DNA of 28,785 bases from an uncultured Candidatus Saccharibacteria bacterium (GCA_964564105.1 CAZLZS010000011.1:1-28785); one strand, 5' to 3'. Counted from the stretch's first letter, positions 3 to 17,733 are shown. Notes: a model not told the origin generated them from the letters alone. Made by a program: numbers and translations.

Positions 3-191
3 ATTCTTAGCCTGACCGCGGTCTTTCGCGCGCCTAATCCGGGCTACCCGTTGGCGATCGCTTCTGTGAGTACACTGCTTGTGATTTTTGTTTCCCGTTT
101 TGTTTTTCATTCTTCGCTTGAACGGCGTTTGGTGCTCGCCACGATTATTATTATCGCCGGTGTCGCCCTTATTCGCTTCGGCAGTCTGTAA
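3..191 (+). CDS. 3' end of an upstream gene (5'-truncated by the window edge); hydrophobic C-terminus of a membrane protein
   Basis: Open frame from the window edge to TAA at 189-191. Translation (..LLVIFVSRFVFH..LVLATIIIIAGVALIRFGSL) is strongly hydrophobic, like the C-terminal TM segments of polyprenyl-P sugar/glycosyl transferases. No start codon in the window. Confidence 0.35.
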   Translation: MLSLTAVFRAPNPGYPLAIASVSTLLVIFVSRFVFHSSLERRLVLATIIIIAGVALIRFGSL

Positions 192-210
192 AAATACATT
201 TTGAGTAATT

Positions 211-1266
211 ATGAGAAAAACTTTAAAAATTGGTTCACGAATAATTGGTCCGGGACGACCCATCTTCATCATCGCGGAGCTTTCCGGCAATCACCATCAA
301 GACATCAATCAGGCCATGGCTTTGATTGATGTCGCCGCCGACGCCGGAGCGGATGCGATTAAGTCGCAAACTTACACTGCCGGTACAATCACACTTAATT
401 CCGACACTGAACCCTTTCAAATCAAAGTCAACGACGCCTGGAAAGGTCAGACGCTTTATGATTTATATAAGCAGACGTTTACGCCGTGGGAGTGGTTACC
501 GAAAATGAAAGAGCGGGCCGAGGCCAGGGGCCGTTTCTTTTTCACCAGTGTTTTTGATCCGACCGCGGTTGATTTTATGGAGCAGATCGGGGTTAAGTTT
601 TACAAAGTAGCTTCGTTCGAAGTGGTGGATATTCCTTTGCTTCAGAGAATCGGCCAGACCAAAAAGCCGGTGATTATGTCGGGCGGTATGGCGACTGATG
701 AAGAATTGGCGTTGGCCCTAAAGACCCTGCGCGAGTTCGGTTCACCGGCCGTGGCTTTGCTCCACTGCCTTAGTTCTTACCCGGCCCGGCCGGAAGAAAT
801 GAATCTCGCGACCATTCCGGAACTGGCGCGGAAATTCGAAGTGGTGGCTGGTCTGTCAAATCATTGTCTTGATAATCGGATTGATTCTTTAGCCGTAGCC
901 GCGGGCGCGGCGATTATTGAAAAACATTTGACCTTGCGGCGATCGGATGGTGGACCGGACGCGGCGTTCTCGCTTGAGCCGGAGGAGTTCAAAGATCTGG
1001 TCAAGAGGGTTCGCCAGACCGAAACAATCATGGGCCGGCCGCAATCTAGCGCTGGCGAGAAAGAAACCGAGAACATTGTTTTTCGTAAGTCGTTGTTTGT
1101 CGCTAAACCGATCAAGCGAGGCGAAAAATTTACCCGGGAGAATGTTCGGTCGGTGCGCCCGGGCCATGGCCTCGCGCCGAAATATCTCGACGAAATTGTC
1201 GGCCAAACCGCCAGCCGTGACATCAAAATGGGGACTCCGCTTTCATGGGCTTTGATCGAAAAATAA
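211..1266 (+). CDS. NeuB/PseI/LegI-family nonulosonic acid (sialic acid-type) synthase
   Basis: 351 aa. N-terminal IFIIAELSGNHHQD..AGADAIKSQTY is the hallmark NeuB TIM-barrel start. C-terminal SAF/antifreeze-like domain (ENIVFRKSLFVAKPIKRGEKFTRENVRSVRPG). Confidence 0.85.
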   Translation: MRKTLKIGSRIIGPGRPIFIIAELSGNHHQDINQAMALIDVAADAGADAIKSQTYTAGTITLNSDTEPFQIKVNDAWKGQTLYDLYKQTFTPWEWLPKMKERAEARGRFFFTSVFDPTAVDFMEQIGVKFYKVASFEVVDIPLLQRIGQTKKPVIMSGGMATDEELALALKTLREFGSPAVALLHCLSSYPARPEEMNLATIPELARKFEVVAGLSNHCLDNRIDSLAVAAGAAIIEKHLTLRRSDGGPDAAFSLEPEEFKDLVKRVRQTETIMGRPQSSAGEKETENIVFRKSLFVAKPIKRGEKFTRENVRSVRPGHGLAPKYLDEIVGQTASRDIKMGTPLSWALIEK

Positions 1267-2411
1267 TTTTACCCTTCGATATCGGGTTTTATGATCAACG
1301 ACATCCCGATTTGCCCGAGTTTCTGCCGTTTGAGCTAAGGGTTGATCGGCGGTCTGGTTTAATCTGTCAGAAAACCAACGCGTCAGTGAGGCGAGCGCTC
1401 AAGCTCTATTATACTCTTGGTGGTTACGCGTCCACGCCCTTAGGTGAAGGCGATTACGGTCAACGTCAGGGGGACGAAGTTTTCTCTCTTTTGGAGTCAG
1501 CCATTCTCGCGCGCGGCCGGAAAATTAGCGAAATGAGTTTTCTGGAAATCGGCGCCGGCTACGGCTATTTGCTTTATCGGTTGAAGCAGTCCGGTGCGAA
1601 ACTAACTCTCGGGCTGGAACCCGGCAACGAAGGAGTCGTCGGGGCCAGAAAATACCAGATTCGGATTCTTCAGGAATTTTTTCCCACCAATCAGCTTCAG
1701 GAAAAATTCGATTGCGTTTTTTCTTATGGTGTTTTAGAACATATTGAGAATCCACGATCGATTTTTAAGAAAATAACTGAAGTTTTAAACCAAGCCGGAA
1801 TAATTTTTATGGCGGTGCCGGATTGTGAGATGAAAATGGCCATCGGCGATCCATCCATCATCTCTCATCAGCATGTCAATTATTTTACTAAAGATTCTAT
1901 GACGGAATTGTTAGCCAGTGCCGGTTTTACCAAAATGAAGATCGAGAGTCATTCCGGTCGAACGATGCTTATCGCTTCAGCCATAAAAACCGCTAGCGGT
2001 CACGTCAGGTTGAGAAAGACATCAGACGATGCTAGACAGCTTACGATTGACTTCTGGAAAAATTTAAGGAATAATGTTAGGTCGATCCAAAAATTAATCG
2101 ACGAGTTGGAAAAAATTTCTAATAATCCAATCGGTTTTTACGGCGCTGGTTGCTCGGTCCTCAAGGGACTTTTAAAAATGAAAAGTGAACCGCGTCTTTT
2201 CGACAGCGACGAGGTAAAATGGGGGAAACATGTTGCTGATTTCCAACGACCAGTCGAATCTCCTCAAGCGCTCGTTCAGAACCCGCCAGCCGCAATTTTT
2301 ATCACCCCGATTGATTATGACAAGGAAATAAGAGATTATCTAAAGAGTTTAATTGGACTAAAATTAATTAGAGTAATTTCTCTTAAAGAAATTTATCAAT
2401 GGAAAAAGTAA
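1245..2411 (+). CDS. Class I SAM-dependent methyltransferase (sugar C/N/O-methyltransferase-like)
   Basis: 388 aa. Glycine-rich SAM motif I LEIGAGYGYLL and an acidic motif-II-like stretch. The C-terminal region resembles the C-terminal domain of NDP-sugar C-methyltransferases. Overlaps the upstream gene by 22 nt, suggesting operon coupling. Confidence 0.65.
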   Translation: MGFDRKIILPFDIGFYDQRHPDLPEFLPFELRVDRRSGLICQKTNASVRRALKLYYTLGGYASTPLGEGDYGQRQGDEVFSLLESAILARGRKISEMSFLEIGAGYGYLLYRLKQSGAKLTLGLEPGNEGVVGARKYQIRILQEFFPTNQLQEKFDCVFSYGVLEHIENPRSIFKKITEVLNQAGIIFMAVPDCEMKMAIGDPSIISHQHVNYFTKDSMTELLASAGFTKMKIESHSGRTMLIASAIKTASGHVRLRKTSDDARQLTIDFWKNLRNNVRSIQKLIDELEKISNNPIGFYGAGCSVLKGLLKMKSEPRLFDSDEVKWGKHVADFQRPVESPQALVQNPPAAIFITPIDYDKEIRDYLKSLIGLKLIRVISLKEIYQWKK

Positions 2412-3337
2412 AAAATCTCTTGTTTACTTGCGCTGGTGGAAATGCCGTGCAGTATCTGGCCAAACGTTTACTCGGCCGTTTTAATGTCTTTCTAGTTGAT
2501 GGCAGTGATCAAAGTTTCATCGCCGGAGAGATCGGGGCGCCCTTTGTCCGAGTGCCTTTCGGCAATGATCCGGCTTATGTTCCGGAAATCAAAAAGCTGG
2601 TCAGTAATTGGCAGATAGATTTCATTGTGCCAGGCGCCGATGAAGAACTTGTGCCCTTAGCGGAAGCTTACGAGGAAGCAGAGCTTCCGCCGCTCGTCAT
2701 GCCGTCCTTGGTTTTTACTCAGTCAGTTTTACACAAAAAGAATCTTATGAAGATTTTGGCGGATAAGAACATCTCTAAACTTTTGCCGTTCGAAAACATT
2801 GAAGAGATTAAGTATCCAGCCGTGGCCAAGCCGATTTACGGCCGTGGTTCGCGCGAGTTCCACATTATCAAGAATCCAACCGAGCTTGACGGCTATCTCA
2901 AACTCTACGGGAAACATTTTGGTGAGATTGTCGTTGAACCATATATCGCCGGTGACGAGTATACCGTTTCAGTGATTGTCAACAACAAAAATAAAATTAT
3001 AGGCATTGTGCCAAAGAAAGTTATTCTAAAACGGGGAATCACTCGGGTCGCTGTCTCTGAAAAAAACGAGGTGATAGATACAGTTTGTAGAAAAGTGATA
3101 GCGGAGTTAGATCCGCGCGGTCCCCTTAATGTTCAGCTGAAGTTTTTTGAGAATCAGGTTTATATTTTCGAAATCAATCCGCGTCTTTCCACCACTGCGG
3201 TTTTAACTGATCAATGTTTCGGTAATGAGGTTGAACTGTTTATAAAATATTTCGGCGATGAAAAGATAGATCACCCACCGATAATGAAAGAAAACGTTTT
3301 TCTTTATCGTTTTGATCAGAATTATTTTAGGTCATGA
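2399..3337 (+). CDS. ATP-grasp family ligase (carboxylate-amine ligase-like)
   Basis: 312 aa. The fold pattern (ATP-binding K..KP, EPYIAGDEYTVSV, FEINPRLS) is typical of ATP-grasp enzymes. Start overlaps the previous stop by 13 nt. Confidence 0.65.
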   Translation: MEKVKNLLFTCAGGNAVQYLAKRLLGRFNVFLVDGSDQSFIAGEIGAPFVRVPFGNDPAYVPEIKKLVSNWQIDFIVPGADEELVPLAEAYEEAELPPLVMPSLVFTQSVLHKKNLMKILADKNISKLLPFENIEEIKYPAVAKPIYGRGSREFHIIKNPTELDGYLKLYGKHFGEIVVEPYIAGDEYTVSVIVNNKNKIIGIVPKKVILKRGITRVAVSEKNEVIDTVCRKVIAELDPRGPLNVQLKFFENQVYIFEINPRLSTTAVLTDQCFGNEVELFIKYFGDEKIDHPPIMKENVFLYRFDQNYFRS

Positions 3338-4185
3338 AGATTTTAATCATCGGCGGTTCACGTTTTATGGGGCCGCGAATCGTAAATTTGCTTATGGCGC
3401 ACGGTCATAATCTGACGGTTTTTAACCGCGGAACAATTATTGAACCACCACCTGGCGCCAAATTTATTAAGGGTGATCGCGATCTAGGATTTAAAATCAC
3501 CGATCATTTCGATGCCGCCATTGATACTTGCGCTTATAATGGCCAGCAAGTCGCCGGCGTTTTCCGGGAACTTAAATTTGATTTCTACTTGCACATTGGT
3601 ACAGCGGCTTCGTACCGAAAACCGGAAAGGTTCCCCCTGGTTGAGGAGATGCCAATCGGCGATTGGCCGTTGTGGGGAGATTATAATAAAGGTAAGGTCG
3701 AAGCTGAGAGGACACTGGAAAAAATCGGCCGATCATATGTTGTTCTCCGCCCCGTTTACATTTTAGGGGTGGCCAATCATGTAGCTCGTGAGAGGTTTAT
3801 CTATTCTAAAATAAAACAAGGAGAGAAAATTATTTTACCTGGTGATGGTAAAGCTAAGGCCCAATTTGTTTTTGTCCAAGATGTTGCCGCCGCGGTCGTG
3901 CTTTTGGTGGAGAATAAGATCAGCGGAATTTTCAACTGTGCCGGCGACGAAATAATCACCTTGCATCAATTAGTGTCAGAGATGGCAAAAGTTGTTGGCC
4001 GGGAGGCGAGATTAGGTTTTAATCCCGCCACCACCGGGGTTAATTGGCGAAGTGAAGAATTCCCATTTGCCAACCAAGATTTCTATTGTTTGAACACTAA
4101 GATCAAAAGGCTCGGTCTTAGATTTACCCCACTCCTTGCTGGTCTGAAAGCTGATTATGAAAATTATTATCGAGGAATCGTTTGA
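3334..4185 (+). CDS. NAD-dependent epimerase/dehydratase (extended SDR)
   Basis: 283 aa. N-terminal Rossmann motif MKILIIGGSRFMGPRIVNLL. ATGA start/stop overlap with the upstream gene. Confidence 0.75.
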   Translation: MKILIIGGSRFMGPRIVNLLMAHGHNLTVFNRGTIIEPPPGAKFIKGDRDLGFKITDHFDAAIDTCAYNGQQVAGVFRELKFDFYLHIGTAASYRKPERFPLVEEMPIGDWPLWGDYNKGKVEAERTLEKIGRSYVVLRPVYILGVANHVARERFIYSKIKQGEKIILPGDGKAKAQFVFVQDVAAAVVLLVENKISGIFNCAGDEIITLHQLVSEMAKVVGREARLGFNPATTGVNWRSEEFPFANQDFYCLNTKIKRLGLRFTPLLAGLKADYENYYRGIV

Positions 4186-4188
4186 TCT

Positions 4189-4848
4189 ATGAAAACATTT
4201 ATTGTTAGTGATATCCACGCCAACTATCAAGCCCTGATTAATCTATTGTCTATTCTGCGGCCGACAACCGATGACCAGTTGTTATTTTTAGGCGATTACT
4301 TGGATAAAAATCCTTATGTCAGAGAGACGTTAGTTTTGCTAAAATCTCTTCAGGGAAAGTGCCGCTGCGTTTTCCTAAAAGGTAATCATGAATTTGTCTG
4401 GGTTAAATATTTAAAAGATAAGGAGATGGCCCGGCGTGAGTTTATTGAAAGTTACGGCGGTCTGGAAACCTTGCGTCAGTTTTCGGTTAGGCCAGAACTC
4501 ATGACCGCTTACTTAAAAATCATTGATCAGTCGGAGGATTATAAAATAGTCAGCCCGTACTTCGCGACCCACGCCGGCCTTTTGGCGGAACAACTAGACG
4601 ATCCTAAACCGCAGTTTACGGAACTAAATTATTTCGTTCGGCCGCGGCAGATGAATCTCGAGAAAAAATATCTCGGTCAGTATCGAATCGTCGCCGGGCA
4701 TACTTGTTTGGGGACGGAGCCGACTTTTGAAACTGGTTACATCAACATTGATCTCGGCGCTGGTTATCCCGGCGGTTTTATCGGTGCTCTAGATGTTTCG
4801 AGAAATGAAATTATTCGATCCGATGGCCGAAAATTTACGGTCAGATAG
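4189..4848 (+). CDS. Calcineurin-like metallophosphoesterase
   Basis: 219 aa. Metal-binding motifs VSDIHAN (D-x-H), GDYLD (GD), GNHEF (GNH[DE]). Confidence 0.75.
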   Translation: MKTFIVSDIHANYQALINLLSILRPTTDDQLLFLGDYLDKNPYVRETLVLLKSLQGKCRCVFLKGNHEFVWVKYLKDKEMARREFIESYGGLETLRQFSVRPELMTAYLKIIDQSEDYKIVSPYFATHAGLLAEQLDDPKPQFTELNYFVRPRQMNLEKKYLGQYRIVAGHTCLGTEPTFETGYINIDLGAGYPGGFIGALDVSRNEIIRSDGRKFTVR

Positions 4849-4882
4849 CCAAGGATTGATTTTTAAGTTATGATCTAATTTA

Positions 4883-5551
4883 ATGACCAACGATATCTTA
4901 GTGATTGCCGCTCACCCCGACGATGAAGTTCTTGGGGTTGGTGGCACCCTGCTTCGGCACCAGAAGGCCGGCGATAATATTTTTATCCTGATTCTGGCCA
5001 ATGGCGAAAGTTCTCGGGATACCGGCGTTGAAGTGGAAAAACGTTTGAGGCAAGCCACTCAGGTGACTAAATGTCTCGGCGCTAAACTCTTTTTGGAAGA
5101 TTTTCCGGATAATGCTTTTGACAGCGTGCCGCTTTTAAAAGTTGCCAAAGTGGTTGAAAAAGCGGTCGCGGCGGCGAAACCGACCATTGTTTACACTCAC
5201 CATCCTTACGATCTCAATCTTGACCATCGTTTGACTTTTCAGGCGGTTTTGACTGCCTGTCGTCCTCAACCTGGTTTTCCCGTTGAAAAGATCCTCGCTT
5301 TTGAAACTTTGTCTTCGACCGAGTGGCAGACTAAAGATGGGGGCAATGCTTTTTGTCCGCGGCAGTACATTGATATTTCAGATTTTATCGATCAGAAGCT
5401 GGAAATTTTAAAGATCTATCAGGACGAACTTCGAGTTTATCCCCACCCACGTTCAATTGAAGGCGTTAAAATACTGGCTGCTTATCGAGGTTTAGAAGTC
5501 GGATTGAGATTTGCTGAAGCCTTTGAAGTCATTAGAATTTTACAGAGATAG
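4883..5551 (+). CDS. PIG-L/LmbE-family N-acetyl-sugar deacetylase
   Basis: 222 aa. N-terminal ILVIAAHPDDEVLGVGGTL is the signature HPDDE zinc-binding motif of LmbE/MshB/PIG-L deacetylases. Confidence 0.8.
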   Translation: MTNDILVIAAHPDDEVLGVGGTLLRHQKAGDNIFILILANGESSRDTGVEVEKRLRQATQVTKCLGAKLFLEDFPDNAFDSVPLLKVAKVVEKAVAAAKPTIVYTHHPYDLNLDHRLTFQAVLTACRPQPGFPVEKILAFETLSSTEWQTKDGGNAFCPRQYIDISDFIDQKLEILKIYQDELRVYPHPRSIEGVKILAAYRGLEVGLRFAEAFEVIRILQR

Positions 5552-5591
5552 ATTAGGTGTGCTAACTTAGCTAAAGAAAGGAGATTAGATT

Positions 5592-6047
5592 ATGGAATTG
5601 CGACTAGCCACGATCGAGGATGCCTTAATCCTGTTTAATTGGCGGAATGACCCCGTTTCCCGGCAGAACTTTATTCATCAAGAATTGGTGAGTTGGGACG
5701 AGCATATCGCTTGGCTCAAGAATAGTTTAACCAATTTTCGTCGTCAGATTTTTATCGCTACAGTTAATGGTCGTCCGGTCGGGCAAATTCGCCTCGATGA
5801 GATTGATGAAGTTCGCACAGAATTATCATGGACGATCGCTCCTGAAGAGCGCGCTAAGGGTTATGGCAAGGAGATGGTGCGATTGGGGGCAAGTAAGGTT
5901 CCTAACGGACGAACATCAATTGCCAAGATCAAAAGCCACAACGAGGCCTCACGCCGCATTGTGAATAGACTCGGTTTCCAATTTAAAACTATATGTGATG
6001 GACTCGAGGAATGGACACTTTTTAAGAAAAAAGCCCAACGACACTGA
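5592..6047 (+). CDS. GNAT N-acetyltransferase, PseH-like (amino-sugar N-acetyltransferase)
   Basis: 151 aa. LFNWRNDPVSRQNF resembles the PseH (FKWRNHPDI) N-terminus. The acetyl-CoA-binding region R..G.G..L is present. An AGGAG Shine-Dalgarno lies 8 nt upstream. Confidence 0.7.
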   Translation: MELRLATIEDALILFNWRNDPVSRQNFIHQELVSWDEHIAWLKNSLTNFRRQIFIATVNGRPVGQIRLDEIDEVRTELSWTIAPEERAKGYGKEMVRLGASKVPNGRTSIAKIKSHNEASRRIVNRLGFQFKTICDGLEEWTLFKKKAQRH

Positions 6048-6079: not shown

Positions 6080-6982
6080 TTAAACCCCGTAAAACTCTTT
6101 GAAGGTCTGGATCTGTCGTCTGGCTGTATCCGATCCCCAGCGTATTTCGAGGCAAACCGTATCCATCTCTTGAATTGCTTTACGCAAACAAGCTGGCGGT
6201 TTGACATCGATGTAGTCATGATTATCTATTAGGGTTGGCGGAATACCCGAGAAGTGGCAAATTGGCCAGTGAGGTAGATCCAAGTACTGCTGGATGGCGG
6301 TTTTCAGATCAAGCTTCGGTAGATACCTCGAGAATCTTGGGTTCTTGGCTTGATTGACCATCACGATCAGATGGGTGAAGTCAATTAAACAGCGATGGCC
6401 GCGATCCATCATGATCGCCATATCGTCTGGAGTACCGCCGAAGCCCCAGTAGTTGTAAGTCACCCCAGCTTCTGATTCTTCTAAGATGACGAGTGGCGGT
6501 ACGTTTTCCAGAGCTACTGTTCTAGGGTCAGGATATTCAGTCAAGAACTCCACGATTTTTCTTCTCGCCACAGTATCAGTAGAGCTTTGACCATAACCAA
6601 CGTGGGCCACACCCAGCGGATGATGAGAAGCGATATTTAACCGTTTAGCCACCTCGATACCCCATTCAATGGTTTCTCGGTTCCACTGGGCCCAGCTCAT
6701 CTCTCCTTTATGATCGGCATAGACTCCTTTTTCATCAAGTGTTTGGCCAAAGTCTACACCCCTATTCTCGGCGCCGTAATGGATCATGAATTGCAGATCA
6801 GTCGGCAGTCGGTCGAGAATTTTCCGTAGGTCGCGGCTGGTAAGTTCGGGAGTAAATGACGGGTGTGCGACTAATAATTGCAGTCCATCGATCAAACCTT
6901 CGTTGAACAGGGCCATTTGCAGATTGTAATACTCATCTTGTCTGACCAGGTTTTCTAACAGTAGACCACCGTAGACCATCAT
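6080..6982 (-). CDS. Hypothetical protein, probably a xylose-isomerase-like TIM-barrel (sugar phosphate isomerase/epimerase, AP-endonuclease-2 fold)
   Basis: Called as a 305-aa ORF from 6997. A GAGGAG SD points to the internal ATG at 6982 as the real start (300 aa). Motifs TVALENVPP, HHPLGVAHVGYG and conserved acidic/His residues are typical of the fold. Convergent with the sugar operon. Confidence 0.5.
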   Translation of the reverse strand: MMVYGGLLLENLVRQDEYYNLQMALFNEGLIDGLQLLVAHPSFTPELTSRDLRKILDRLPTDLQFMIHYGAENRGVDFGQTLDEKGVYADHKGEMSWAQWNRETIEWGIEVAKRLNIASHHPLGVAHVGYGQSSTDTVARRKIVEFLTEYPDPRTVALENVPPLVILEESEAGVTYNYWGFGGTPDDMAIMMDRGHRCLIDFTHLIVMVNQAKNPRFSRYLPKLDLKTAIQQYLDLPHWPICHFSGIPPTLIDNHDYIDVKPPACLRKAIQEMDTVCLEIRWGSDTARRQIQTFKEFYGV

Positions 6983-7164
6983 TATGATTCTCCTCATTCA
7001 CTGTATTCAAAGAACTTAATTTACTGGTGACGACAGTCGTCCCAGACCATCTAAATACATACACTATTAATGTTTAAAAGTCAATACTCCCAGAGGGAAC
7101 CGATTTTCGTACACTATAACCAGACGTAAGATAAAACATTACAAGCCTTGTTGCATTAAATTTT

Positions 7165-8319
7165 ATGATTCTTTACGAACACGAGGGCAAAACTTTGCTC
7201 CAATTCGCCGGTATCACTGTTCCTAAGTCGCAATTGTTAACTAAGGAAAACGAATCGGTAACGATGTTTCTACCCTGCGTTCTTAAAGCCCAAACTCTAT
7301 CCGGGAAGAGGGCTAAGGCGGGCTGGATCATTAAAGTTGGAGATAAAAAAGAAATTTTACCGGCCCTGCATCGTCTCTTTGGCCAATCAATCAATGGTGA
7401 ATTAATAAAAAATGTTTTGGTTGAAGAACAGATCCAATATGAGGAGGAATGGTATGTTTCTTTTTCTTATAATCCAGAAACTCGCTGTCCCGTGATCATT
7501 GTTTCTTCTGATGGTGGTTCGGGAGTTGAAGAGCAGGAAAAGATGAAAGAAATTTTCGAGACAGATATTAGAATATCTTCACTGCCGGCTATAGGCGGCT
7601 TACCAGCCATGTTGATGAGTACTTTATTTAAGCTTTTTTTAGACCAAGATTGCCTATTGCTCGAAATAAATCCATTAGTTAAGACGAGTGTCGGTTGGAT
7701 GGCGCTTGATGCTAAAATTAAGTTAGACGATAATGCCTCCAATCGGCATCCCGAGTGGGCTTATACTCCTCGCTTGACATCTGGACACCAGATCACTGAT
7801 AGGGAGATTGCCGCTAAGCAAATAGATCAAGATGACCATCGTGGGACGGCTGGTTCCAGTTATCTTGACCTTGATGGTGACATCGCTGTCCTTGCTTCCG
7901 GCGGCGGGGCGTCGCTGGTCGCTATGGACGCGTTGATTGCGGCTGGTGGTCGGCCAGCAAATTACACTGAATATTCTGGGAATCCACCGCGGGAGAAAGT
8001 GATTAAATTAACCAAGATTGTATTATCAAAGCCGGGTTTACATGGGCTATGGATTGTCGGTGCCTTAGCTAACTTTACCGATATTTATGAAACGCTCTCC
8101 GGAATTATTTCCGGCTTGCGGCAAGCAGAAAAATCTTTAGGTCGAAAATTTGATTTTCCAATTGTAATTCGCCGCGGTGGACCATATGACGAGAAGGCCT
8201 TTGCAATGTTAAAAGAAGTAAAAGATTTTGATCTTACAATTTATGGTCCTACGATTTCTATTGCTGAATCAGCCAAAGCGGTAGTTCAATTATCAAAAGA
8301 TTACGGCAGTCGAGTATGA
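7165..8319 (+). CDS. Succinyl-CoA synthetase beta-subunit-like ATP-grasp protein (AclB/CcsA-like candidate)
   Basis: 384 aa. MILYEHEGKTLLQFAGITVP resembles SucC MNLHEYQAKQLF. Also LLLEINPLV, and DGDIAVLASGGGASLVAMDALIAAGGRPANYTEYSGNPP matching the SucC C-terminal CoA-ligase domain. Confidence 0.8.
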   Translation: MILYEHEGKTLLQFAGITVPKSQLLTKENESVTMFLPCVLKAQTLSGKRAKAGWIIKVGDKKEILPALHRLFGQSINGELIKNVLVEEQIQYEEEWYVSFSYNPETRCPVIIVSSDGGSGVEEQEKMKEIFETDIRISSLPAIGGLPAMLMSTLFKLFLDQDCLLLEINPLVKTSVGWMALDAKIKLDDNASNRHPEWAYTPRLTSGHQITDREIAAKQIDQDDHRGTAGSSYLDLDGDIAVLASGGGASLVAMDALIAAGGRPANYTEYSGNPPREKVIKLTKIVLSKPGLHGLWIVGALANFTDIYETLSGIISGLRQAEKSLGRKFDFPIVIRRGGPYDEKAFAMLKEVKDFDLTIYGPTISIAESAKAVVQLSKDYGSRV

Positions 8320-9218
8320 ATTTACTTTTACCACCAGACAGTCGATTTATTGGTCAAGGTATCACTGGAGCGGAGGGTCGATCTTCTTTGCCGACCATGC
8401 TCCGTTATGGTACTCAATTAGTGGCTGGCGTCACACCCGGTAAGGGTGGTCAAGAGTTGGAAGGAGTACCCATTTTTAATACTGTCAAAGAAGCGATGGC
8501 GGTAGTGGGTCCGGTAAACAGTAGTGTTCAATTTGTTCCACCGCTTTTTACTTTAGCGGCAGTTCAAGAAGCGCTTCAGGCTGGCATAAAATTTATTCTT
8601 ATCGGTGCGGAAAAGGTACCAACTCGTGATACGGCTACCATTATCAGTTTAGCTAAAACTCATCAGGCAACGATTATTGGTCCGAGTTCAGTTGGTCTGA
8701 TTAATCCTAAGAGGAAATTGAAAATCGGAGCGATTGGCGGCAATAATCCAGACAGAGTTTATACCCCGGGTAACATATCGGTTATTTCTAAATCAGGCGG
8801 GATGACTTCGGAAATAAGCTTGCATCTTAAACAGAATGGTTTGGGGGTGAGTTGGGCGGTAGGTATCGGTGGTGATCGGATTATTGGTAGCGATTTTGTT
8901 GACTGGCTCAAAGCACTCGAAAGTGATTCCGAGACAGCCGCCTCAGTCATTTTTGGAGAATTGGGCGGTACTTATGAAGAGGCGGCCGCGGTTGCCGTCC
9001 AGTCTGGCGCAGTGAAGAAACCTGTAATTGCTTTTATCGCCGGAGAGTTTGCCTCGCGTCTTCCCTCGGAGGTGCAATTTGGCCATGCAGGTGCTTTGAT
9101 TGAAGGTGGCCGCGGTCGGCCCGAGCACAAGCGACAAGTGCTGTCCGCGGCCGGTATTCGAGTGGTGAAGCATTTCGACGAGGTCAGCCAGCTAGTTAAA
9201 GAAGCTCTGGGTAAGTAG
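8316..9218 (+). CDS. Succinyl-CoA synthetase alpha-subunit-like CoA-binding protein (AclA N-terminal / CcsB-like candidate)
   Basis: 300 aa. GITGAEGRSS..YGTQLVAGVTPGKGG, GPSSVGLINP, SKSGGMTSE and the phospho-His loop QFGHAGALIEGG align motif-for-motif with SucD. Four-nucleotide overlap with the upstream gene. Confidence 0.85.
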   Translation: MNLLLPPDSRFIGQGITGAEGRSSLPTMLRYGTQLVAGVTPGKGGQELEGVPIFNTVKEAMAVVGPVNSSVQFVPPLFTLAAVQEALQAGIKFILIGAEKVPTRDTATIISLAKTHQATIIGPSSVGLINPKRKLKIGAIGGNNPDRVYTPGNISVISKSGGMTSEISLHLKQNGLGVSWAVGIGGDRIIGSDFVDWLKALESDSETAASVIFGELGGTYEEAAAVAVQSGAVKKPVIAFIAGEFASRLPSEVQFGHAGALIEGGRGRPEHKRQVLSAAGIRVVKHFDEVSQLVKEALGK

Positions 9219-9227
9219 AATATAAAT

Positions 9228-9902
9228 ATGGCGTTGCTAGTCTCTCATCGAGATGAAGAATCATATTTTGGCGATGAACTACAGCTTGATGTCGGTCAAA
9301 AACTTCATTTCGCCGAGATGATTTTTTGGCTCTTGGCGGAACGCCGGCCCACCGCCGCCGAACTGGCAGTATTTGGACTAATTCTTAATCTCTCAATCGA
9401 TCACGGATCCGAGACGCCATCGGCCAAGGCGACTATCGCGGCGACCAAAGCCGGTCATCCGATAAGCGAGGCAGTCGCCTCCGGGATCAAAGAAATCGAT
9501 CATGTTCATGGTGGAGCGCAGGAAGCCTTGATGCCGATCTTGTATCAAATGGTAAAGGGAAATGTGTCCGCCGCGACTATTATTCGGGATTATCTTTTAC
9601 GAAAAGAACGGGTGCCTGGTTTTGGCCATCGACTTTATACTAAGGTAGATCCGCGGGCGGAATTAATCTTAACTACCCTGCAAGCTCACAGTTTAGGTGA
9701 AGAATATATCAAGGCCGGTTGCTCTCTTGGACAAACACTCAAGCAGGTCACTGGTAAAGACTTGCCGTTTAATATCGACGGTGCGATTGCGGTCGCACTC
9801 TGCGCCTTTGATTTCCCTTCAGCGCTCGGTGCTGCTGTGTTCATCGTCGCGCGTACGCCGGGTTTGTGTGCCCATTTTATAAGTAATCGCCCAGAGACTT
9901 AA
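9228..9902 (+). CDS. Citrate synthase-like catalytic (C-terminal) domain protein; citryl-CoA lyase-like
   Basis: 224 aa. HVHGGAQEA (His274-type), PGFGHRLYTKVDPRA (citrate synthase GFGHRVYK..DPRA, His320-type) and NIDGAIAV (Asp375-type) are the three catalytic signature regions of citrate synthase, ACL C-terminus and Ccl. Confidence 0.75.
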   Translation: MALLVSHRDEESYFGDELQLDVGQKLHFAEMIFWLLAERRPTAAELAVFGLILNLSIDHGSETPSAKATIAATKAGHPISEAVASGIKEIDHVHGGAQEALMPILYQMVKGNVSAATIIRDYLLRKERVPGFGHRLYTKVDPRAELILTTLQAHSLGEEYIKAGCSLGQTLKQVTGKDLPFNIDGAIAVALCAFDFPSALGAAVFIVARTPGLCAHFISNRPET

Positions 9903-12204: not shown

Positions 12205-12909
12205 ATGATCAAAAATATTCTTAAGGGTTTCCCACGTCTGTTATTTTCGTCTTTACTTTGTCTTTTGGTCTTTGCCTTCTTTACCTATGCCGCGAGTACT
12301 ATTAGTACCAATATCTCAACTGATGGCACTTTAACCGTCAACGGCAATTCGACTTTTGGCGATGCGGCAACGGATGTTAATTTATTCACCGGGACGCTGC
12401 AGGCTTCAACCACTGCCTTGTTTACAAGCGGATTTACGACTTTTGGCGCTTCAGTTTTTAACGAAAACAGCGGGGCGCTTGACTTCCGGGTGGAAAGTGA
12501 CGGTCAAGCCAACATGCTGTACGTTGATGGAACCAATGATAGGGTTGGCATTGCCAGTAGTACGCCATATGTGGCTTTAGGGGTAGTTGGAACGACTACT
12601 TCAAGTCTCGGCATGAGAATTGGGGCCACCGGATCAGGTATTACTCAACTGTATTTTGGTACTTGTTCTGTCAATTTGCCCAATATTACAGCTAGCAGTA
12701 CGGCCTCAGCTGACTGCACAGCGACCGGAGTTAATCTGGGTGACAAAGTTTTTGTTACTCCGGCCAGTTTAGAGAATCACGTTGTTTTCACTAGCGCTTC
12801 CACGACAGCGGCTGATACGATTCAGGTAAGTGCTTATAATTACGGCGGTGGTCAAGGCACCGCGGTTAATCCGGCCGCGGCGACTTGGTCCTGGATGGCA
12901 GTACGGTAA
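12205..12909 (+). CDS. Secreted Thr/Ser/Gly-rich beta-rich protein (surface protein/adhesin-like), hypothetical
   Basis: 234 aa. N-terminal signal peptide MIKNILKGFPRLLFSSLLCLLVFAFFTYAAS. Low-complexity T/S/G-rich mature region. Confidence 0.6.
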   Translation: MIKNILKGFPRLLFSSLLCLLVFAFFTYAASTISTNISTDGTLTVNGNSTFGDAATDVNLFTGTLQASTTALFTSGFTTFGASVFNENSGALDFRVESDGQANMLYVDGTNDRVGIASSTPYVALGVVGTTTSSLGMRIGATGSGITQLYFGTCSVNLPNITASSTASADCTATGVNLGDKVFVTPASLENHVVFTSASTTAADTIQVSAYNYGGGQGTAVNPAAATWSWMAVR

Positions 12910-12931
12910 TTTCTTTCGCCCTATAATCTTC

Positions 12932-16899: not shown

Positions 16900-17733
16900 A
16901 TGAACAAGGAAATTTTGGAGAAGCTAAAAACATATTTTGAAAACCGCGACGAGGTCGTAATGGCGTTTCTTTTCGGCTCACGGGCCGAGGGGCGGGCACG
17001 GAACGATTCTGACTGGGATATCGGTGTGTACTTTAGACCGAAGACCAAGGGAGAATTGGAAACAAAAGAACGGTATACAGGCGAGAGTGAAATTTCTGGC
17101 GAGGTGGCGCGGCTTCTCGGCGCGGAAACTGATGTCGTCGTTCTTAATCGCGCCCGCCCGTCGCTCGTATTTGACGTGCTCAATTCGGGGAAAATCCTCG
17201 CCAACAAGGATGAAACATTGTACCTGGAACTGCTCTCAAAAACTCACTACGAAGCCGTTGACTACTGGAATTTCGTGAAAGAATTTTGGGATATCAGACA
17301 ACAAGCCGCGTCGCTGACCCCTAAAGCCAGGGCATTTCTTGCGGAGCATTTAACGTTTCTTGAAAACGAGTTTGCCGATTTTCCAAAATTTCAGAACCTC
17401 TCGTGGAAGGAGTACCAAGAAAACCGAAGCCAGCGGCGAGAGATTGAGCGCTGGGTAGAAAATGTTGTAATGAGCTTAATTGATATTGCAAAGGTCATTC
17501 TTGCCTCCGAGAAAAAAGATGTGCCGCAGACCTATAACGAGACAATCAAACGATTTGCGATTTCTTTTACCGATGAGAAGGCAGCTGAAAAATTGGCGGA
17601 GTTTGCCGAATTGAGAAATTTAGTAGTGCATGAATACCTTGATTTAAGATTCGCGCGCATTAAAAGGTTTATTGAAGAAGCGGAGACGCAATTGCCTCCG
17701 ATTATTGAGAAGATTAAAGAAATTATAAAATGA
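16900..17733 (+). CDS. Fused minimal nucleotidyltransferase (MNT) + HEPN domain protein (MntA-HepT-like single-chain module)
   Basis: 277 aa. N-terminal MNT motif LFGSRAEGRARNDSDWDIGVYF (GS-x9-10-D-x-D). C-terminal HEPN R-x4-H-x-Y motif AELRNLVVHEY. Confidence 0.75.
   Translation: MNKEILEKLKTYFENRDEVVMAFLFGSRAEGRARNDSDWDIGVYFRPKTKGELETKERYTGESEISGEVARLLGAETDVVVLNRARPSLVFDVLNSGKILANKDETLYLELLSKTHYEAVDYWNFVKEFWDIRQQAASLTPKARAFLAEHLTFLENEFADFPKFQNLSWKEYQENRSQRREIERWVENVVMSLIDIAKVILASEKKDVPQTYNETIKRFAISFTDEKAAEKLAEFAELRNLVVHEYLDLRFARIKRFIEEAETQLPPIIEKIKEIIK

What the first reader, a model, noticed from the sequence alone, without database searches (positions are those of the whole stretch)
3..6047. 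Nonulosonic-acid (pseudaminic/legionaminic/sialic-type) sugar operon with an unusual tailoring set
NeuB-family synthase plus PseH-like GNAT establishes a nonulosonic acid pathway. The co-operonic SAM-methyltransferase, ATP-grasp ligase, LmbE-type deacetylase, metallophosphoesterase and SDR epimerase suggest a deacetylate-then-reacylate (possibly amino-acid or non-acetyl acyl) and methylate decoration not found in the canonical Pse/Leg pathways. Together with the Wzy_C-TPR protein and the secreted proteins downstream, this probably builds a decorated surface glycan or glycoprotein.
Basis: partly seen in the sequence, partly recalled or inferred. Interest (0 to 1): 0.5.

Follow-up and report, generated by a model that had tools for sequence, protein, structure and literature searches.

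The report
Pseudaminic acid operon with tailoring cassette
This is the tail end of a gene cluster that makes the bacterial sialic-acid-like sugar pseudaminic acid in an uncultured Candidatus Vogelbacteria bacterium; it carries a five-gene sugar-tailoring cassette that occurs in many phyla but, as far as I could find, has never been studied.

Summary
Window 211-6047 carries seven tightly packed, same-strand genes:
- PseI (above NCBI's equivalog cut-off)
- a TylC3/TcaB9-like methyltransferase
- an ATP-grasp ligase
- an extended SDR
- a metallophosphoesterase
- a PIG-L deacetylase
- a PseH-type GNAT

The window is a whole contig of a Candidatus Vogelbacteria MAG, so the upstream PseB/C/F steps cannot be seen. 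Two related Patescibacteria genomes show them in the same cluster.

The "unusual" genes are not peculiar to this contig. In 32 evaluable loci from many phyla, the ATP-grasp gene lies next to:
- a NeuB-family synthase in 31
- PIG-L in 31
- a phosphohydrolase in 28 (Metallophos or NUDIX; an IMPase-type protein in the other 4)
- an SDR in 26

Elsewhere the ATP-grasp is fused to an SDR, methyltransferase, GNAT or formyltransferase.

Best reading, by inference only: the cassette works on the nucleotide sugar. It deacetylates, then re-acylates with ATP, methylates, and releases the sugar from UDP. No Patescibacteria-type locus has a detectable PseG.

The cluster continues past 6047 with a citryl-CoA synthetase/lyase trio and a Wzy_C-TPR protein. 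I found no paper describing the cassette. Verdict: new variant of a known kind, moderate interest.

The parts
3..191 (+). C-terminal 62 residues of an EamA-like membrane protein, cut by the contig end. It ends 19 bp before pseI. Whether it belongs to the cluster is not shown.
   Evidence: Translation. Pfam EamA E 6.8e-4, below cut-off. No homolog in related loci.
211..1266 (+). pseI, pseudaminic acid synthase (NeuB + SAF domains).
   Evidence: TIGR03586 scores 424.6 bits against a cut-off of 340.25. Pfam NeuB 1e-78, SAF 1.6e-15.
1245..2411 (+). SAM methyltransferase related to NDP-4-keto-sugar 3-C-methyltransferases. It has the methyltransferase domain and the C-terminal domain but lacks the N-terminal zinc-ribbon domain.
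   Evidence: Methyltransf_23 6e-17. The family profile hits 4rv9 at 1.2e-24, TcaB9 at 2.5e-18 and 5t64 at 9e-16, over profile positions 77-361. H166 and H210 are invariant. Relatives lie between pseB and pseC. An ATP-grasp-methyltransferase fusion exists, P0276.
2399..3337 (+). ATP-grasp carboxylate-amine ligase, the anchor gene of the cassette.
   Evidence: Pfam and NCBIfam. AlphaFold pLDDT 93. Nearest folds are 2pn1, PylC, PurT and L-amino-acid ligases. ATP-grasp residues are invariant. Synteny in 32 loci. Fusions.
3334..4185 (+). Extended SDR (NAD-dependent epimerase/reductase type) with a YNKGK motif at residue 117.
   Evidence: Epimerase 6.5e-17. Nearest solved relatives are NDP-sugar 4-epimerases and decarboxylases. 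An SDR occupies this slot in 26 of 32 loci. ATP-grasp-SDR fusions P0267 and P0280. SDR-NUDIX fusion in L006.
4189..4848 (+). Calcineurin-like metallophosphoesterase (ApaH/PrpE-like) with all catalytic motifs intact.
   Evidence: Metallophos 1.4e-14. ApaH/PrpE are the top NCBIfam hits. Motifs. The slot holds Metallophos in 25 loci, NUDIX in 3 and an IMPase-type protein in 4.
4883..5551 (+). PIG-L/LmbE-family N-deacetylase.
   Evidence: PIG-L 7.7e-25. BshB1 60 bits, below cut-off. AHPDD motif. Present next to the ATP-grasp in 31 of 32 loci.
5592..6047 (+). PseH-type GNAT N-acetyltransferase.
   Evidence: TIGR03585 48.6 bits, below the cut-off of 93.1. 35% identity, E 1e-19, to the PseH domain of the L005 PseG-PseH fusion. 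Unrelated to the second GNAT of relatives. RAKGYG acyl-CoA motif.
6080..6997 (-). 305-residue ORF on the opposite strand with no family match. It sits between the two halves of the cluster. Role unknown.
   Evidence: No Pfam or NCBIfam hit. No homolog in fetched loci.
7165..9902 (+). Three genes: citryl-CoA synthetase large subunit-like (7165-8319), small subunit-like (8316-9218) and citryl-CoA lyase-like (9228-9902).
   Evidence: 6hxq_B 3e-57 and 6hxp 2e-31. Pfam. The same trio follows the GNAT in L014 and lies between pseI and the GNAT in L087.
9942..12074 (+). Wzy_C (O-antigen ligase / O-oligosaccharyltransferase type) membrane protein with C-terminal TPR repeats. Candidate glycan ligase for the cluster's product.
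   Evidence: Wzy_C 1.2e-21 plus TPR. Homologs end nonulosonic acid clusters in L008, L011, L012, L087 and L115.

Best explanation
Window 211-6047 is the distal part of a pseudaminic acid (Pse) cluster in a Candidatus Vogelbacteria (Patescibacteria) genome. The cluster continues to 12074.

Two genes do core steps:
- The PseH-type GNAT acetylates the 4-amino group of the UDP sugar.
- PseI condenses the freed hexose with phosphoenolpyruvate.

Between them sits a portable five-gene cassette that, by inference, acts on the UDP-linked amino-sugar intermediates:
1. The TylC3/TcaB9-like methyltransferase methylates the UDP-4-keto-6-deoxy product of PseB, most likely on carbon.
2. The SDR reduces or epimerises a nucleotide-sugar keto or hydroxyl group.
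3. The PIG-L enzyme removes an N-acetyl group, most likely the GlcNAc-derived 2-N-acetyl that becomes N5 of Pse.
4. The ATP-grasp ligase joins a different carboxylic acid to the freed amine, using ATP. The acid's identity is unknown.
5. The metallophosphoesterase cleaves the phosphate linkage. In this lineage, where no PseG is detectable, that most likely means releasing the remodelled sugar from UDP so that PseI can use it.

The predicted product is a non-canonical Pse with a non-acetyl N-acyl group and possibly a methyl branch. It would be CMP-activated by genes off the contig. The Wzy_C-TPR protein is the candidate for attaching the glycan to a surface acceptor.

Shown: gene identities, synteny and fusions. 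Inferred: every substrate, the order of steps and the product.
For: Pse pathway. PseI is above the equivalog cut-off. Relatives L002 and L003 encode PseB, PseC and a PseF-position cytidylyltransferase in the same cluster; L002's PseB, PseC and WbuX score above cut-off.

Cassette unity. In 32 evaluable loci the ATP-grasp lies beside:
- NeuB/PseI in 31
- PIG-L in 31
- Metallophos or NUDIX in 28
- an SDR in 26
- the methyltransferase in 7

These loci span Patescibacteria, Bacteroidota, Campylobacterota, Desulfobacterota, Planctomycetota, Nitrospirota, Bacillota and an archaeon.

Fusions link the ATP-grasp to SDR, methyltransferase, GNAT and formyltransferase (P0140; P0197). An SDR-NUDIX fusion exists in L006.

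Nucleotide-sugar level. The SDRs are closest to NDP-sugar epimerases and 4-ketoreductases. The methyltransferase is closest to NDP-4-keto-sugar C-methyltransferases, and both pocket histidines are conserved. In L002, L003 and L015 the methyltransferase lies between pseB and pseC.

Ligase fold. PylC, PurT and L-amino-acid ligases are the nearest characterised folds.

Hydrolase role. A PseG model finds PseG in all 26 loci of other lineages but in none of the 12 Patescibacteria-type loci, including the complete-looking L002 and L003. NUDIX replaces Metallophos in three Patescibacteria-type loci.

Established knowledge. All characterised PIG-L enzymes deacetylate the 2-acetamido group of GlcNAc glycosides. 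The Metallophos enzymes LpxH and UshA hydrolyse UDP-sugars. The mycothiol pathway uses the same logic: phosphatase, PIG-L deacetylase, ATP-dependent ligase, then GNAT.

Literature. A deacetylase plus formyltransferase acting at the nucleotide-sugar level has been proposed for a legionaminic acid cluster (bioRxiv 10.64898/2026.04.20.719630). N-acetyl-alanyl and glyceroyl nonulosonic acids exist, and for the glyceroyl groups the genes are reported as unidentified (PMC7371886; PMC5378307).
Against: - No biochemical data exist for any cassette member.
- The upstream half of this cluster is not on the contig, so PseB/C/F and the absence of PseG are unverified for this organism.
- Outside Patescibacteria the cassette coexists with PseG, so the phosphohydrolase cannot simply be a PseG substitute there.
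- Four loci carry a CysQ/HisN-like IMPase, a phosphomonoesterase, in the same slot. That enzyme would not cleave a UDP-sugar diphosphate.
- Homologous Metallophos, ATP-grasp, SDR and methyltransferase sets occur in amino-sugar clusters with no NeuB or PseG within 8 kb. Nucleotide removal would be counter-productive there.
- The methyltransferase lacks the zinc-ribbon domain of the characterised C-methyltransferases, and E224 of TcaB9 is Q here.
- The GNAT is below the PseH cut-off.
Confidence: 0.5

Rival explanations
1. The ATP-grasp attaches a phosphorylated acid, for example 3-phosphoglycerate or O-phosphoserine, to the sugar amine. The phosphohydrolase then removes that phosphate. The result is an N-glyceroyl-type or N-aminoacyl-type Pse, which the methyltransferase and SDR trim further. 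In this reading the phosphoesterase is a decoration enzyme, not a UDP-sugar hydrolase.
For: - Documented precedent: the ATP-grasp domain of C. jejuni Cj1438 ligates serinol phosphate or ethanolamine phosphate, and the phosphatase Cj1435 then removes the phosphate (PMC11800379).
- The ATP-grasp and a phosphohydrolase are near-constant neighbours: 28 of 32 loci, plus 4 with an IMPase-type protein.
- The IMPase variant scores as CysQ/HisN-like, a phosphomonoesterase.
- The window enzyme is of the PPP (Ser/Thr phosphatase, ApaH/PrpE) type.
- Homologous Metallophos/ATP-grasp/SDR/methyltransferase sets sit in clusters without NeuB or PseG, where the sugar must stay nucleotide-linked.
- PseG coexists with the cassette outside Patescibacteria.
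- The genes for N-glyceroyl Pse are reported as unknown (PMC5378307).
Against: - NUDIX enzymes, which fill the slot in three loci and are fused to the SDR in one, cleave diphosphate linkages and not phosphomonoesters.
- The SDR and methyltransferase resemble nucleotide-sugar enzymes, not small-acid enzymes.
- This reading leaves the PseG step unassigned in the Patescibacteria clusters.
Confidence: 0.2
2. The cassette makes a second, separate sugar and does not decorate Pse. The methyltransferase and SDR would act like the TylC3 and 4-ketoreductase pair to build a C-methyl-branched 6-deoxy-amino-hexose from the shared UDP-4-keto intermediate. The ATP-grasp would N-acylate it. That sugar would sit in the same glycan as Pse.
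For: - The methyltransferase family is homologous to mycarose, tetronitrose and kijanose 3-C-methyltransferases over two domains.
- The SDRs are closest to NDP-sugar 4-epimerases and ketoreductases.
- The homologous four-gene set occurs with a 4,6-dehydratase, an aminotransferase and an ABC exporter but no NeuB.
- Bacteroidota loci carry a distinct NeuB paralog next to the cassette that is neither PseI (286 bits, below 340) nor NeuB (349, below 399), alongside true PseI. This hints at two products.
Against: - The ATP-grasp gene is immediately next to a NeuB-family synthase in 31 of 32 loci.
- Only 7 of 32 loci have the methyltransferase.
- In the Patescibacteria loci the only NeuB homolog is a true PseI type, and the only in-cluster candidate for nucleotide removal is in the cassette.
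- A free-standing NDP-sugar pathway would not need a phosphohydrolase or a deacetylase.
Confidence: 0.12
3. The cassette adds nothing new. It is an alternative set of enzymes for the ordinary late steps, or a salvage or editing route that re-processes mis-acylated intermediates. The end product would be ordinary Pse5Ac7Ac.
For: - PseG is missing from all 12 Patescibacteria-type loci.
- ATP-grasp enzymes such as PurT use very small acids like formate, and PurT is among the nearest folds.
- GNAT and formyltransferase fusions to the ATP-grasp could reflect redundant ways of N-acylating the same amine.
Against: - A deacetylase followed by an ATP-consuming re-acetylation would be a futile cycle.
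- The cassette coexists with complete PseB/C/H/G/I sets in 26 loci.
- A dedicated methyltransferase and an SDR have no role in making Pse5Ac7Ac.
Confidence: 0.08

Closest known systems
Canonical CMP-pseudaminic acid pathway (PseB, PseC, PseH, PseG, PseI, PseF of Helicobacter pylori and Campylobacter jejuni)
   Same: PseI is an equivalog-level match. The GNAT is PseH-type. Related Patescibacteria clusters carry PseB and PseC above cut-off plus a PseF-position cytidylyltransferase.
   Different: - No PseG is detectable in any Patescibacteria-type locus.
- Five extra genes lie between pseI and pseH.
- The early genes are not on this contig.
Mycothiol biosynthesis (MshA2 phosphatase, MshB PIG-L deacetylase, MshC ATP-dependent ligase, MshD GNAT) and bacillithiol biosynthesis (BshB, BshC)
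   Same: The enzyme logic is the same and acts on a GlcNAc-derived amide: phosphate removal, PIG-L deacetylation, ATP-dependent ligation of an acid to the sugar amine, then GNAT acylation. The window PIG-L's best named match is BshB1 (60 bits).
   Different: - The ligase here is an ATP-grasp, not a tRNA-synthetase-like enzyme.
- Scores are far below the BshB and MshB cut-offs.
- The scaffold is a nucleotide-linked 6-deoxy-amino sugar feeding a nonulosonic acid, not an inositol or malate glycoside.
Cj1438 ATP-grasp amidoligase plus Cj1435 phosphatase of the C. jejuni HS:2 capsule (PMC11800379)
   Same: An ATP-grasp ligase forms a sugar amide in a glycan cluster and is paired with a phosphatase that removes a phosphate after ligation.
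   Different: - There the sugar supplies the carboxylate and the small molecule supplies the amine.
- Cj1438C is a TupA-like ATP-grasp and Cj1435 is a HAD phosphatase, so both belong to different families.
- No sequence relationship was tested here.
NDP-hexose 3-C-methyltransferases TylC3-type (4rv9), TcaB9 and the 5t64 sugar 3-C-methyltransferase
   Same: The profile match covers the methyltransferase and C-terminal domains at 1e-24 to 9e-16. The two pocket histidines are invariant. In relatives the gene sits right after the 4,6-dehydratase gene.
   Different: - The N-terminal zinc-ribbon domain is absent.
- The Glu of the Glu-His pair is Gln.
- The substrate would be a UDP-2-acetamido sugar.
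- To my knowledge no C-methyl nonulosonic acid has been described.
Deacetylase plus formyltransferase in the legionaminic acid cluster of Ca. Kuenenia stuttgartiensis (bioRxiv 10.64898/2026.04.20.719630)
   Same: It proposes N-deacetylation and re-acylation of a nonulosonic acid precursor at the nucleotide-sugar stage. A small formyltransferase often sits next to the cassette, and fusions of it to the ATP-grasp exist.
   Different: - That cluster is legionaminic acid type and, as described, has no ATP-grasp, SDR or phosphoesterase.
- This window has no formyltransferase.
Citryl-CoA synthetase and citryl-CoA lyase of Hydrogenobacter thermophilus (6hxq, 6hxp)
   Same: The trio at 7165-9902 matches these best (3e-57 and 2e-31), far better than it matches succinyl-CoA synthetase or citrate synthase. 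The GHAGA phosphohistidine loop and the lyase His/Asp motifs can be read in the translations.
   Different: It is found in a genome-reduced Patescibacteria member, inside or beside nonulosonic acid clusters, not in a reductive TCA cycle setting. Its substrate and role here are unknown.

Membership tests
Pseudaminic acid synthase PseI (TIGR03586) | Whole-protein score above the curated equivalog cut-off, and higher than for the NeuB model | tested here: met
   424.6 bits against a cut-off of 340.25. The NeuB_NnaB model gives 292.7 against 399.65.
Pseudaminic acid synthase PseI (TIGR03586) | NeuB catalytic domain followed by a SAF domain | tested here: met
   PF03102 at residues 38-276 (1e-78) and PF08666 at residues 293-350 (1.6e-15).
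Pseudaminic acid synthase PseI (TIGR03586) | Condenses 2,4-diacetamido-2,4,6-trideoxy-L-altrose with phosphoenolpyruvate | not testable with these tools
   Needs an enzyme assay.
Complete CMP-Pse cluster (PseB, C, H, G, I, F) | PseB, PseC, PseF and PseG encoded with PseI and PseH | tested here: inconclusive
   None of the four is among the annotated ORFs of the window. However, the window is the whole contig and starts 210 bp before pseI. Relatives L002 and L003 have PseB, PseC and a PseF-position cytidylyltransferase but no PseG.
PseH N-acetyltransferase (TIGR03585) | Score above the equivalog cut-off | tested here: not met
   48.6 bits against 93.1. The model is narrow: the GNAT domain of a genuine PseG-PseH fusion scores only 31.
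PseH N-acetyltransferase (TIGR03585) | Specific homology to a PseH domain in a verified Pse context, plus an acyl-CoA binding motif | tested here: met
   35% identity over 101 residues, E 1e-19, to the PseH domain of L005 PseG-PseH. No similarity to the other GNAT type. RAKGYG motif.
PIG-L / LmbE deacetylase superfamily | Pfam PF02585 above gathering score, and the AHPDD metal-binding motif | tested here: met
   88.3 bits against 28.2. AHPDD at residue 10.
PIG-L / LmbE deacetylase superfamily | Membership of a characterised subfamily (BshB1, BshB2 or MshB) | tested here: not met
   60.3 against 182.5, 38.9 against 195, and 19.5 against 224.
ATP-grasp carboxylate-amine ligases | ATP-grasp fold with conserved ATP- and Mg-binding residues | tested here: met
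   Pfam. K113, K144, E187, E258, N260 and R262 are invariant. Model pLDDT 93. TM 0.72-0.79 to 2pn1, PylC and PurT.
ATP-grasp carboxylate-amine ligases | Identity of the acid and amine substrates | not testable with these tools
   The closest solved relative, 2pn1, is itself uncharacterised.
NDP-4-keto-sugar C-methyltransferases (TylC3, TcaB9, KijD1 type) | Homology across the methyltransferase domain and the C-terminal domain (PF08484) | tested here: met
   The family profile hits 4rv9 at 1.2e-24 and TcaB9 at 2.5e-18 over positions 77-361. PF08484 is precomputed in 13 of 31 close relatives but not detected in the window protein itself.
NDP-4-keto-sugar C-methyltransferases (TylC3, TcaB9, KijD1 type) | N-terminal zinc-binding domain (PF08421) | tested here: not met
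   No PF08421 hit. The profile match starts at position 77, and I saw no Cys4 cluster in the N-terminal 90 residues of the translation.
NDP-4-keto-sugar C-methyltransferases (TylC3, TcaB9, KijD1 type) | Active-site histidines (TcaB9 H181 and H225) and the Glu-His pair | tested here: inconclusive
   H166 and H210 align to these histidines and are invariant in 28 sequences. The Glu is replaced by Gln (SHQH).
Calcineurin-like metallophosphoesterases | The five signature motifs: DxH, GDxxD, GNHE, H, GH | tested here: met
   DIH8, GDYLD35, GNHE65, HAG128, GH170. PF00149 55.4 bits against 21.5.
Citryl-CoA synthetase / citryl-CoA lyase (two-enzyme ATP-citrate cleavage) | Best matches to CCS and CCL and not to succinyl-CoA synthetase or citrate synthase, with three separate subunits | tested here: met
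   6hxq_B at 3e-57 against succinyl-CoA synthetase beta at 2e-30. 6hxp at 2e-31 against citrate synthases at 1e-13. Succinyl-CoA synthetase equivalog cut-offs are not reached.

The most novel reading that the evidence does not exclude
The ATP-grasp / SDR / phosphohydrolase / PIG-L cassette, with or without the TylC3-like methyltransferase, may be the general and so far unassigned machinery that installs non-acetyl N-acyl groups on pseudaminic acid and related 4-amino-6-deoxy sugars across many phyla. Candidate groups are glyceroyl, aminoacyl and similar. In the methyltransferase-bearing versions it may also yield a C-methyl-branched nonulosonic acid, a sugar type not yet described. In Patescibacteria it may additionally replace PseG. 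The citryl-CoA synthetase/lyase trio embedded in the cluster may supply the acyl-CoA for the PseH-type GNAT.
Probability: 0.25. Interest if true: 0.7.

Novelty: new variant of a known kind. Interest (0 to 1): 0.5.

Why it matters
Nonulosonic acids such as pseudaminic acid coat flagella, pili, S-layers and capsules. Their N-acyl decorations change charge, hydrophobicity, immune recognition and phage susceptibility. Yet the genes for most decorations are unknown. A 2017 study of Tannerella forsythia states this explicitly for the glyceroyl and acetimidoyl groups (PMC5378307).

This window is one instance of a cassette found in hundreds of protein clusters and many phyla. It offers concrete candidate enzymes, and cultivable carriers such as Neolewinella aquimaris DSM 105137 and Aquirufa sp. 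in which to test them.

For Patescibacteria, which live attached to host cells and have tiny genomes, it also points to three things:
- a substantial investment in a decorated surface glycan
- a possible non-PseG route to the PseI substrate
- an unexpected link between a citrate-cleaving enzyme set and glycan synthesis

Tried and rejected
- **Extending the contig.** The exact-protein look-up for PseI found only a 1.2 kb contig, and the window is the full 28,785-bp record. The upstream genes of this organism could not be inspected.
- **Promoter and terminator scan.** Counts were near those of shuffled controls, so it was uninformative. The operon call rests on spacing alone.
- **Literature.** Searches paired pseudaminic or nonulosonic with ATP-grasp, LmbE/PIG-L or metallophosphoesterase. 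No paper describes this gene set. The ATP-grasp mentions were a reference-list entry and a C. difficile type B flagellin gene.
- **Tannerella forsythia.** I considered that its Pse5Am7Gra locus might carry the cassette. The papers list only the six core genes and leave six ORFs undescribed.
- **Actinomycete ATP-grasp hits (L040-L086, mostly Nocardiopsis).** Nearly all of these loci (mostly Nocardiopsis and relatives) have unrelated neighbourhoods, so I excluded them from the synteny counts. Several do keep a nearby PIG-L gene; the few Pse-type loci in that id range were kept in the counts.
- **Fold search of the ATP-grasp model.** It returned only generic ATP-grasp ligases and gave no clue to the substrate.
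- **Homolog search with the metallophosphoesterase.** It found no fusion proteins.
- **ORF 6080-6997 (minus strand).** I tested whether it is the AP_endonuc_2 protein that follows the cassette in L002 and L014. There is no similarity.
- **A KDO/KDN-type or sialic-acid-type NeuB.** Rejected on model scores.
- **The trio at 7165-9902 as an ordinary succinyl-CoA synthetase.** Rejected.

Full report
**What is in the window.** The window is a complete 28,785-bp contig. The methyltransferase's exact match in the protein collection has a longest contig of 28,785 bp. An exact look-up of PseI found only one other contig, 1.2 kb long. SecA and a vault-like protein on the contig carry NCBI names from a MAG of Candidatus Vogelbacteria, a member of the Patescibacteria.

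Seven same-strand ORFs fill 211-6047, separated by -22, -13, -4, 3, 34 and 40 bp. A promoter/terminator scan added nothing. Bases 3-191 are the last 62 residues of a weakly EamA-like membrane protein. It ends 19 bp before the first gene and has no counterpart in related loci.

**Gene identities.**
- 211-1266 is PseI. It scores TIGR03586 424.6 bits against a cut-off of 340.25, and falls below the cut-off for NeuB.
- 1245-2411 is a class I SAM methyltransferase.
- 2399-3337 is an ATP-grasp enzyme of the 'carbamoyl-phosphate-synthase-like' PRK12767 type.
- 3334-4185 is an extended SDR.
- 4189-4848 is a calcineurin-like metallophosphoesterase. Its best named relatives are ApaH and PrpE, and all five catalytic motifs are intact.
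- 4883-5551 is a PIG-L/LmbE deacetylase with the AHPDD motif.
- 5592-6047 is a GNAT.

The GNAT scores under the PseH equivalog cut-off (48.6 against 93.1). That model is narrow, however: the GNAT domain of a genuine PseG-PseH fusion scores only 31. The window GNAT aligns to that domain with 35% identity over 101 residues (E 1e-19). It shows no similarity to the second GNAT type seen in relatives. I therefore treat it as the PseH-type enzyme.

**Upstream steps, seen in relatives.** Homologs of the methyltransferase and the ATP-grasp are common in Patescibacteria. Two long Patescibacteria contigs (L002, 1.36 Mb; L003, 784 kb) show what the truncated window cannot. Their single large cluster runs in this order:
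- a cytidylyltransferase, a GFO oxidoreductase, an aminotransferase and a GNAT
- PseB
- the methyltransferase
- PseC and PseF
- HisH and HisF, a small methyltransferase, and a WbuX amidotransferase
- PseI
- the ATP-grasp, Metallophos, PIG-L and the PseH-type GNAT

PseB (450 bits against 407), PseC (500 against 423) and WbuX (374 against 203) are equivalog or subfamily level matches. The NeuB homolog therefore belongs to a real Pse pathway, not to a KDO/KDN or sialic acid pathway.

**The tailoring genes form a widespread cassette.** I scanned one genome per species with an ATP-grasp alignment. I then labelled ORFs by BLAST and by HMMs built from the hits. Of the loci with a Pse-type ATP-grasp, 32 had enough flanking sequence to evaluate. 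The neighbours were:
- a NeuB-family synthase in 31
- PIG-L in 31
- Metallophos in 25 and NUDIX in 3
- an SDR in 26
- the TylC3-like methyltransferase in 7

The loci come from Patescibacteria, Bacteroidota (including the cultured Neolewinella aquimaris and Aquirufa), Sulfurovum, Desulfospira, Planctomycetia, Nitrospiraceae, Limnochordia, Clostridiaceae, Bacillaceae, Syntrophomonas and a Methanomicrobiales archaeon. Short SAR116 and Pelagibacteraceae contigs carry the same ATP-grasp but were too short to evaluate. A full HMMER scan of 1.84 billion representatives found 550 clusters at E<=1e-30.

The four loci lacking Metallophos and NUDIX carry an inositol-monophosphatase-family protein in the same position. 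It scores PF00459 7.7e-39 and is CysQ/HisN-like. Three unrelated phosphohydrolase families thus displace one another in that slot. Two SDR subtypes do the same. A roughly 210-residue formyltransferase often sits beside PseI and the ATP-grasp.

**Fusions tie the parts together.**
- ATP-grasp with SDR: P0267, P0280.
- ATP-grasp with methyltransferase: P0276.
- GNAT with ATP-grasp: P0140, P0247, P0285, P0346.
- Formyltransferase with ATP-grasp: P0197, P0372, P0367.
- SDR with NUDIX: L006.

A more distant version of the same four genes occurs in amino-sugar clusters with a 4,6-dehydratase, an aminotransferase, an asparagine-synthase-like protein, a formyltransferase, WbqC and an ABC exporter. No NeuB or PseG lies within 8 kb. 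In those clusters the methyltransferase is 31% identical to the window's, the ATP-grasp 25% and the Metallophos 31%. So the cassette is portable. It travels with systems that make a 4-keto and then 4-amino 6-deoxy sugar.

**What the individual enzymes resemble.**
- *Methyltransferase.* The family profile matches solved NDP-sugar 3-C-methyltransferases across both the methyltransferase and C-terminal domains: 4rv9 at 1.2e-24, TcaB9 at 2.5e-18, 5t64 at 9e-16. The histidines that align with TcaB9 H181 and H225 are invariant in 28 family members. The zinc-ribbon N-domain is missing, and the Glu of the Glu-His pair is Gln.
- *ATP-grasp.* The model is confident (pLDDT 93). Its nearest folds are an uncharacterised Exiguobacterium protein (2pn1), PylC, PurT, biotin carboxylases and L-amino-acid ligases. 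This is the carboxylate-amine ligase fold, but it gives no clue to the substrate.
- *SDRs.* They are nearest to NDP-sugar 4-epimerases and 4-ketoreductases.

**Mechanism (inference).** The enzyme set follows the logic of mycothiol synthesis, which is established knowledge: a phosphatase, a PIG-L deacetylase, an ATP-dependent ligase and a GNAT. All characterised PIG-L enzymes remove the 2-N-acetyl group of a GlcNAc glycoside. In Pse that acetyl group ends up on N5.

I therefore propose the following. PIG-L frees that amine on a UDP-linked intermediate. The ATP-grasp re-acylates it with another acid. The methyltransferase, which in three relatives sits between pseB and pseC, methylates the UDP-4-keto sugar. 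The SDR adjusts a keto or hydroxyl group.

For the phosphohydrolase, the most telling result comes from a PseG model built from 25 PseG domains. It detects PseG in all 26 loci of other lineages that it hit. It detects none in the 12 Patescibacteria-type loci, including the complete-looking L002 and L003. In this lineage the Metallophos or NUDIX enzyme is thus the only in-cluster candidate for freeing the hexose from UDP. Metallophos enzymes such as LpxH and UshA are known UDP-sugar hydrolases.

Several facts count against making this general:
- The cassette coexists with PseG elsewhere.
- The IMPase variant is a monoesterase.
- The cassette occurs in clusters without NeuB.

These facts favour the main rival. 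In it the ATP-grasp attaches a phosphorylated acid and the phosphatase then removes the phosphate. This is documented for Cj1438 and Cj1435 in the C. jejuni capsule (PMC11800379). I put the overall scheme at about 0.5. Within it, I favour the UDP-release role over the phospho-acyl role only slightly.

**The cluster extends beyond the reported end.** After a reverse-strand ORF with no family match (6080-6997) come three genes. Their best solved relatives are the citryl-CoA synthetase large subunit (6hxq_B, 3e-57) and citryl-CoA lyase (6hxp, 2e-31) of Hydrogenobacter. They match these far better than succinyl-CoA synthetase or citrate synthase. A Wzy_C-TPR membrane protein follows.
- In L014, which is the L003 genome, the same trio directly follows the PseH-type GNAT.
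- A metagenome scan found L087. There the order is PseB, PseC, three further genes, PseF, PseI, the trio, DUF218, the PseH-type GNAT and Wzy_C-TPR.
- L115 has the trio followed by Wzy_C-TPR.
- L147 has the trio beside a NeuC-containing nonulosonic acid cluster.
- About 10 of 18 trio-bearing loci have amino-sugar genes nearby. Two have tryptophan genes instead.

The link is recurrent but not universal. A role in supplying acetyl-CoA or another acyl-CoA to the GNAT is a guess. Wzy_C-TPR homologs also end the clusters in L008, L011 and L012. The two downstream ORFs (12205-13891) have hydrophobic N-termini, and one has a weak peptidoglycan-binding hit. Nothing ties them to the cluster.

**Comparison with the literature.** No paper in the searchable library mentions pseudaminic acid together with metallophosphoesterase. 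No paper there describes an ATP-grasp/PIG-L set in a nonulosonic acid cluster.
- Aeromonas flagellin glycosylation islands list unnamed 'deacetylases' among pse genes (PMC7874193).
- A 2026 preprint proposes a deacetylase plus formyltransferase acting at the nucleotide-sugar level in a legionaminic acid cluster.
- The Tannerella forsythia work states that the genes for the N-glyceroyl and N-acetimidoyl groups of its Pse are unknown (PMC5378307).
- A legionaminic acid carrying N-acetyl-alanine is known from Vibrio vulnificus (PMC7371886).

Non-acetyl N-acyl nonulosonic acids are thus well known as structures, while the genetics is largely open.

**Verdict.** The pathway identity and the sugar-tailoring nature of the extra genes hold. 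The exact chemistry is untested. The set is common, not peculiar to this contig, and one 'tailoring' gene may in fact fill a core step. I class it as a new variant of a known kind, of moderate interest (0.5).

Noticed in passing
window 7165-9902 (+); also L014 12748-15255, L087, L115, L147: A three-gene citryl-CoA synthetase / citryl-CoA lyase set (best PDB matches 6hxq_B at 3e-57 and 6hxp at 2e-31) sits in a Patescibacteria genome. It recurs inside or beside nonulosonic acid clusters: about 10 of 18 trio-bearing metagenome loci have amino-sugar genes nearby, and two have tryptophan genes instead. Its role is unknown. Acyl-CoA supply for the GNAT is a guess.
   Followed up: partly
window 24195-26750 (+): An 851-residue protein has Vault_3, MVP_shoulder and Band_7 domains. 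It aligns to rat major vault protein residues 459-789 (E 3e-18) and is almost the same length as the rat protein. NCBI names it hypothetical (MBI2100952.1). Bacterial MVP homologs have been described before (bioRxiv 10.1101/872010).
   Followed up: partly
L021-L036, e.g. L025 8962-9993 and L026 5433-6464: In Bacteroidota and some other loci, the NeuB-family gene directly upstream of the ATP-grasp is a distinct 343-residue paralog. It reaches neither the PseI cut-off (286 against 340) nor the NeuB cut-off (349 against 399). A true PseI (509 bits) can lie in the same locus. This suggests a second synthase dedicated to the cassette's product.
   Followed up: partly
L002 4439-8009, L003, L018, L037: A separate four-gene sub-module (CTP_transf_3 cytidylyltransferase, GFO/IDH/MocA oxidoreductase, a roughly 440-residue DegT aminotransferase and a 180-residue RimL-like GNAT) accompanies the Pse genes in several relatives. 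It resembles the group III Aeromonas flagellin glycosylation islands (PMC7874193). It may add a further amino group at the CMP-sugar level.
   Followed up: no
L040, L046, L047, L062, L069, L076, L079 (Nocardiopsis and relatives): Actinomycete homologs of the ATP-grasp lie in unrelated neighbourhoods. Several still have a PIG-L-family gene within 5 kb (HMM scores 140-185). The deacetylase-ligase pairing may therefore be older than its use in Pse clusters.
   Followed up: no
window 6080-6997 (-): A 305-residue ORF on the opposite strand lies between the Pse genes and the citryl-CoA trio. It has no Pfam or NCBIfam match and no homolog in any fetched locus.
   Followed up: partly
window 16900-17733 (+): A single 277-residue protein fuses a Polbeta-type nucleotidyltransferase (7e-21) to a HepT-like RNase domain (1e-12). 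This is a fused MNT-HEPN toxin-antitoxin-like architecture.
   Followed up: no
window 12205-13891 (+): Two overlapping ORFs (234 and 353 residues) have hydrophobic N-termini. The second has a Gly/Pro-rich linker and a weak peptidoglycan-binding domain hit (E 1.8e-3). No link to the glycan cluster was found.
   Followed up: no
window 27001-28785: GC content drops to 0.38 over 27-28 kb, against about 0.48 elsewhere. The region encodes a NYN-domain protein with a weak HAD-like tail (27180-28112) and a weakly ZIP-like membrane protein.
   Followed up: no
L167-L169 (metagenome contigs): A conserved amino-sugar cluster carries a 4,6-dehydratase, DegT, an asparagine-synthase-like protein, Metallophos_2, an ATP-grasp, an SDR, a 366-residue methyltransferase, an unknown 458-residue protein (weak NodB-deacetylase hit), a formyltransferase with or without a GNAT, WbqC and an ABC exporter. 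It holds a distant version of the window's four-gene set without any NeuB.
   Followed up: partly
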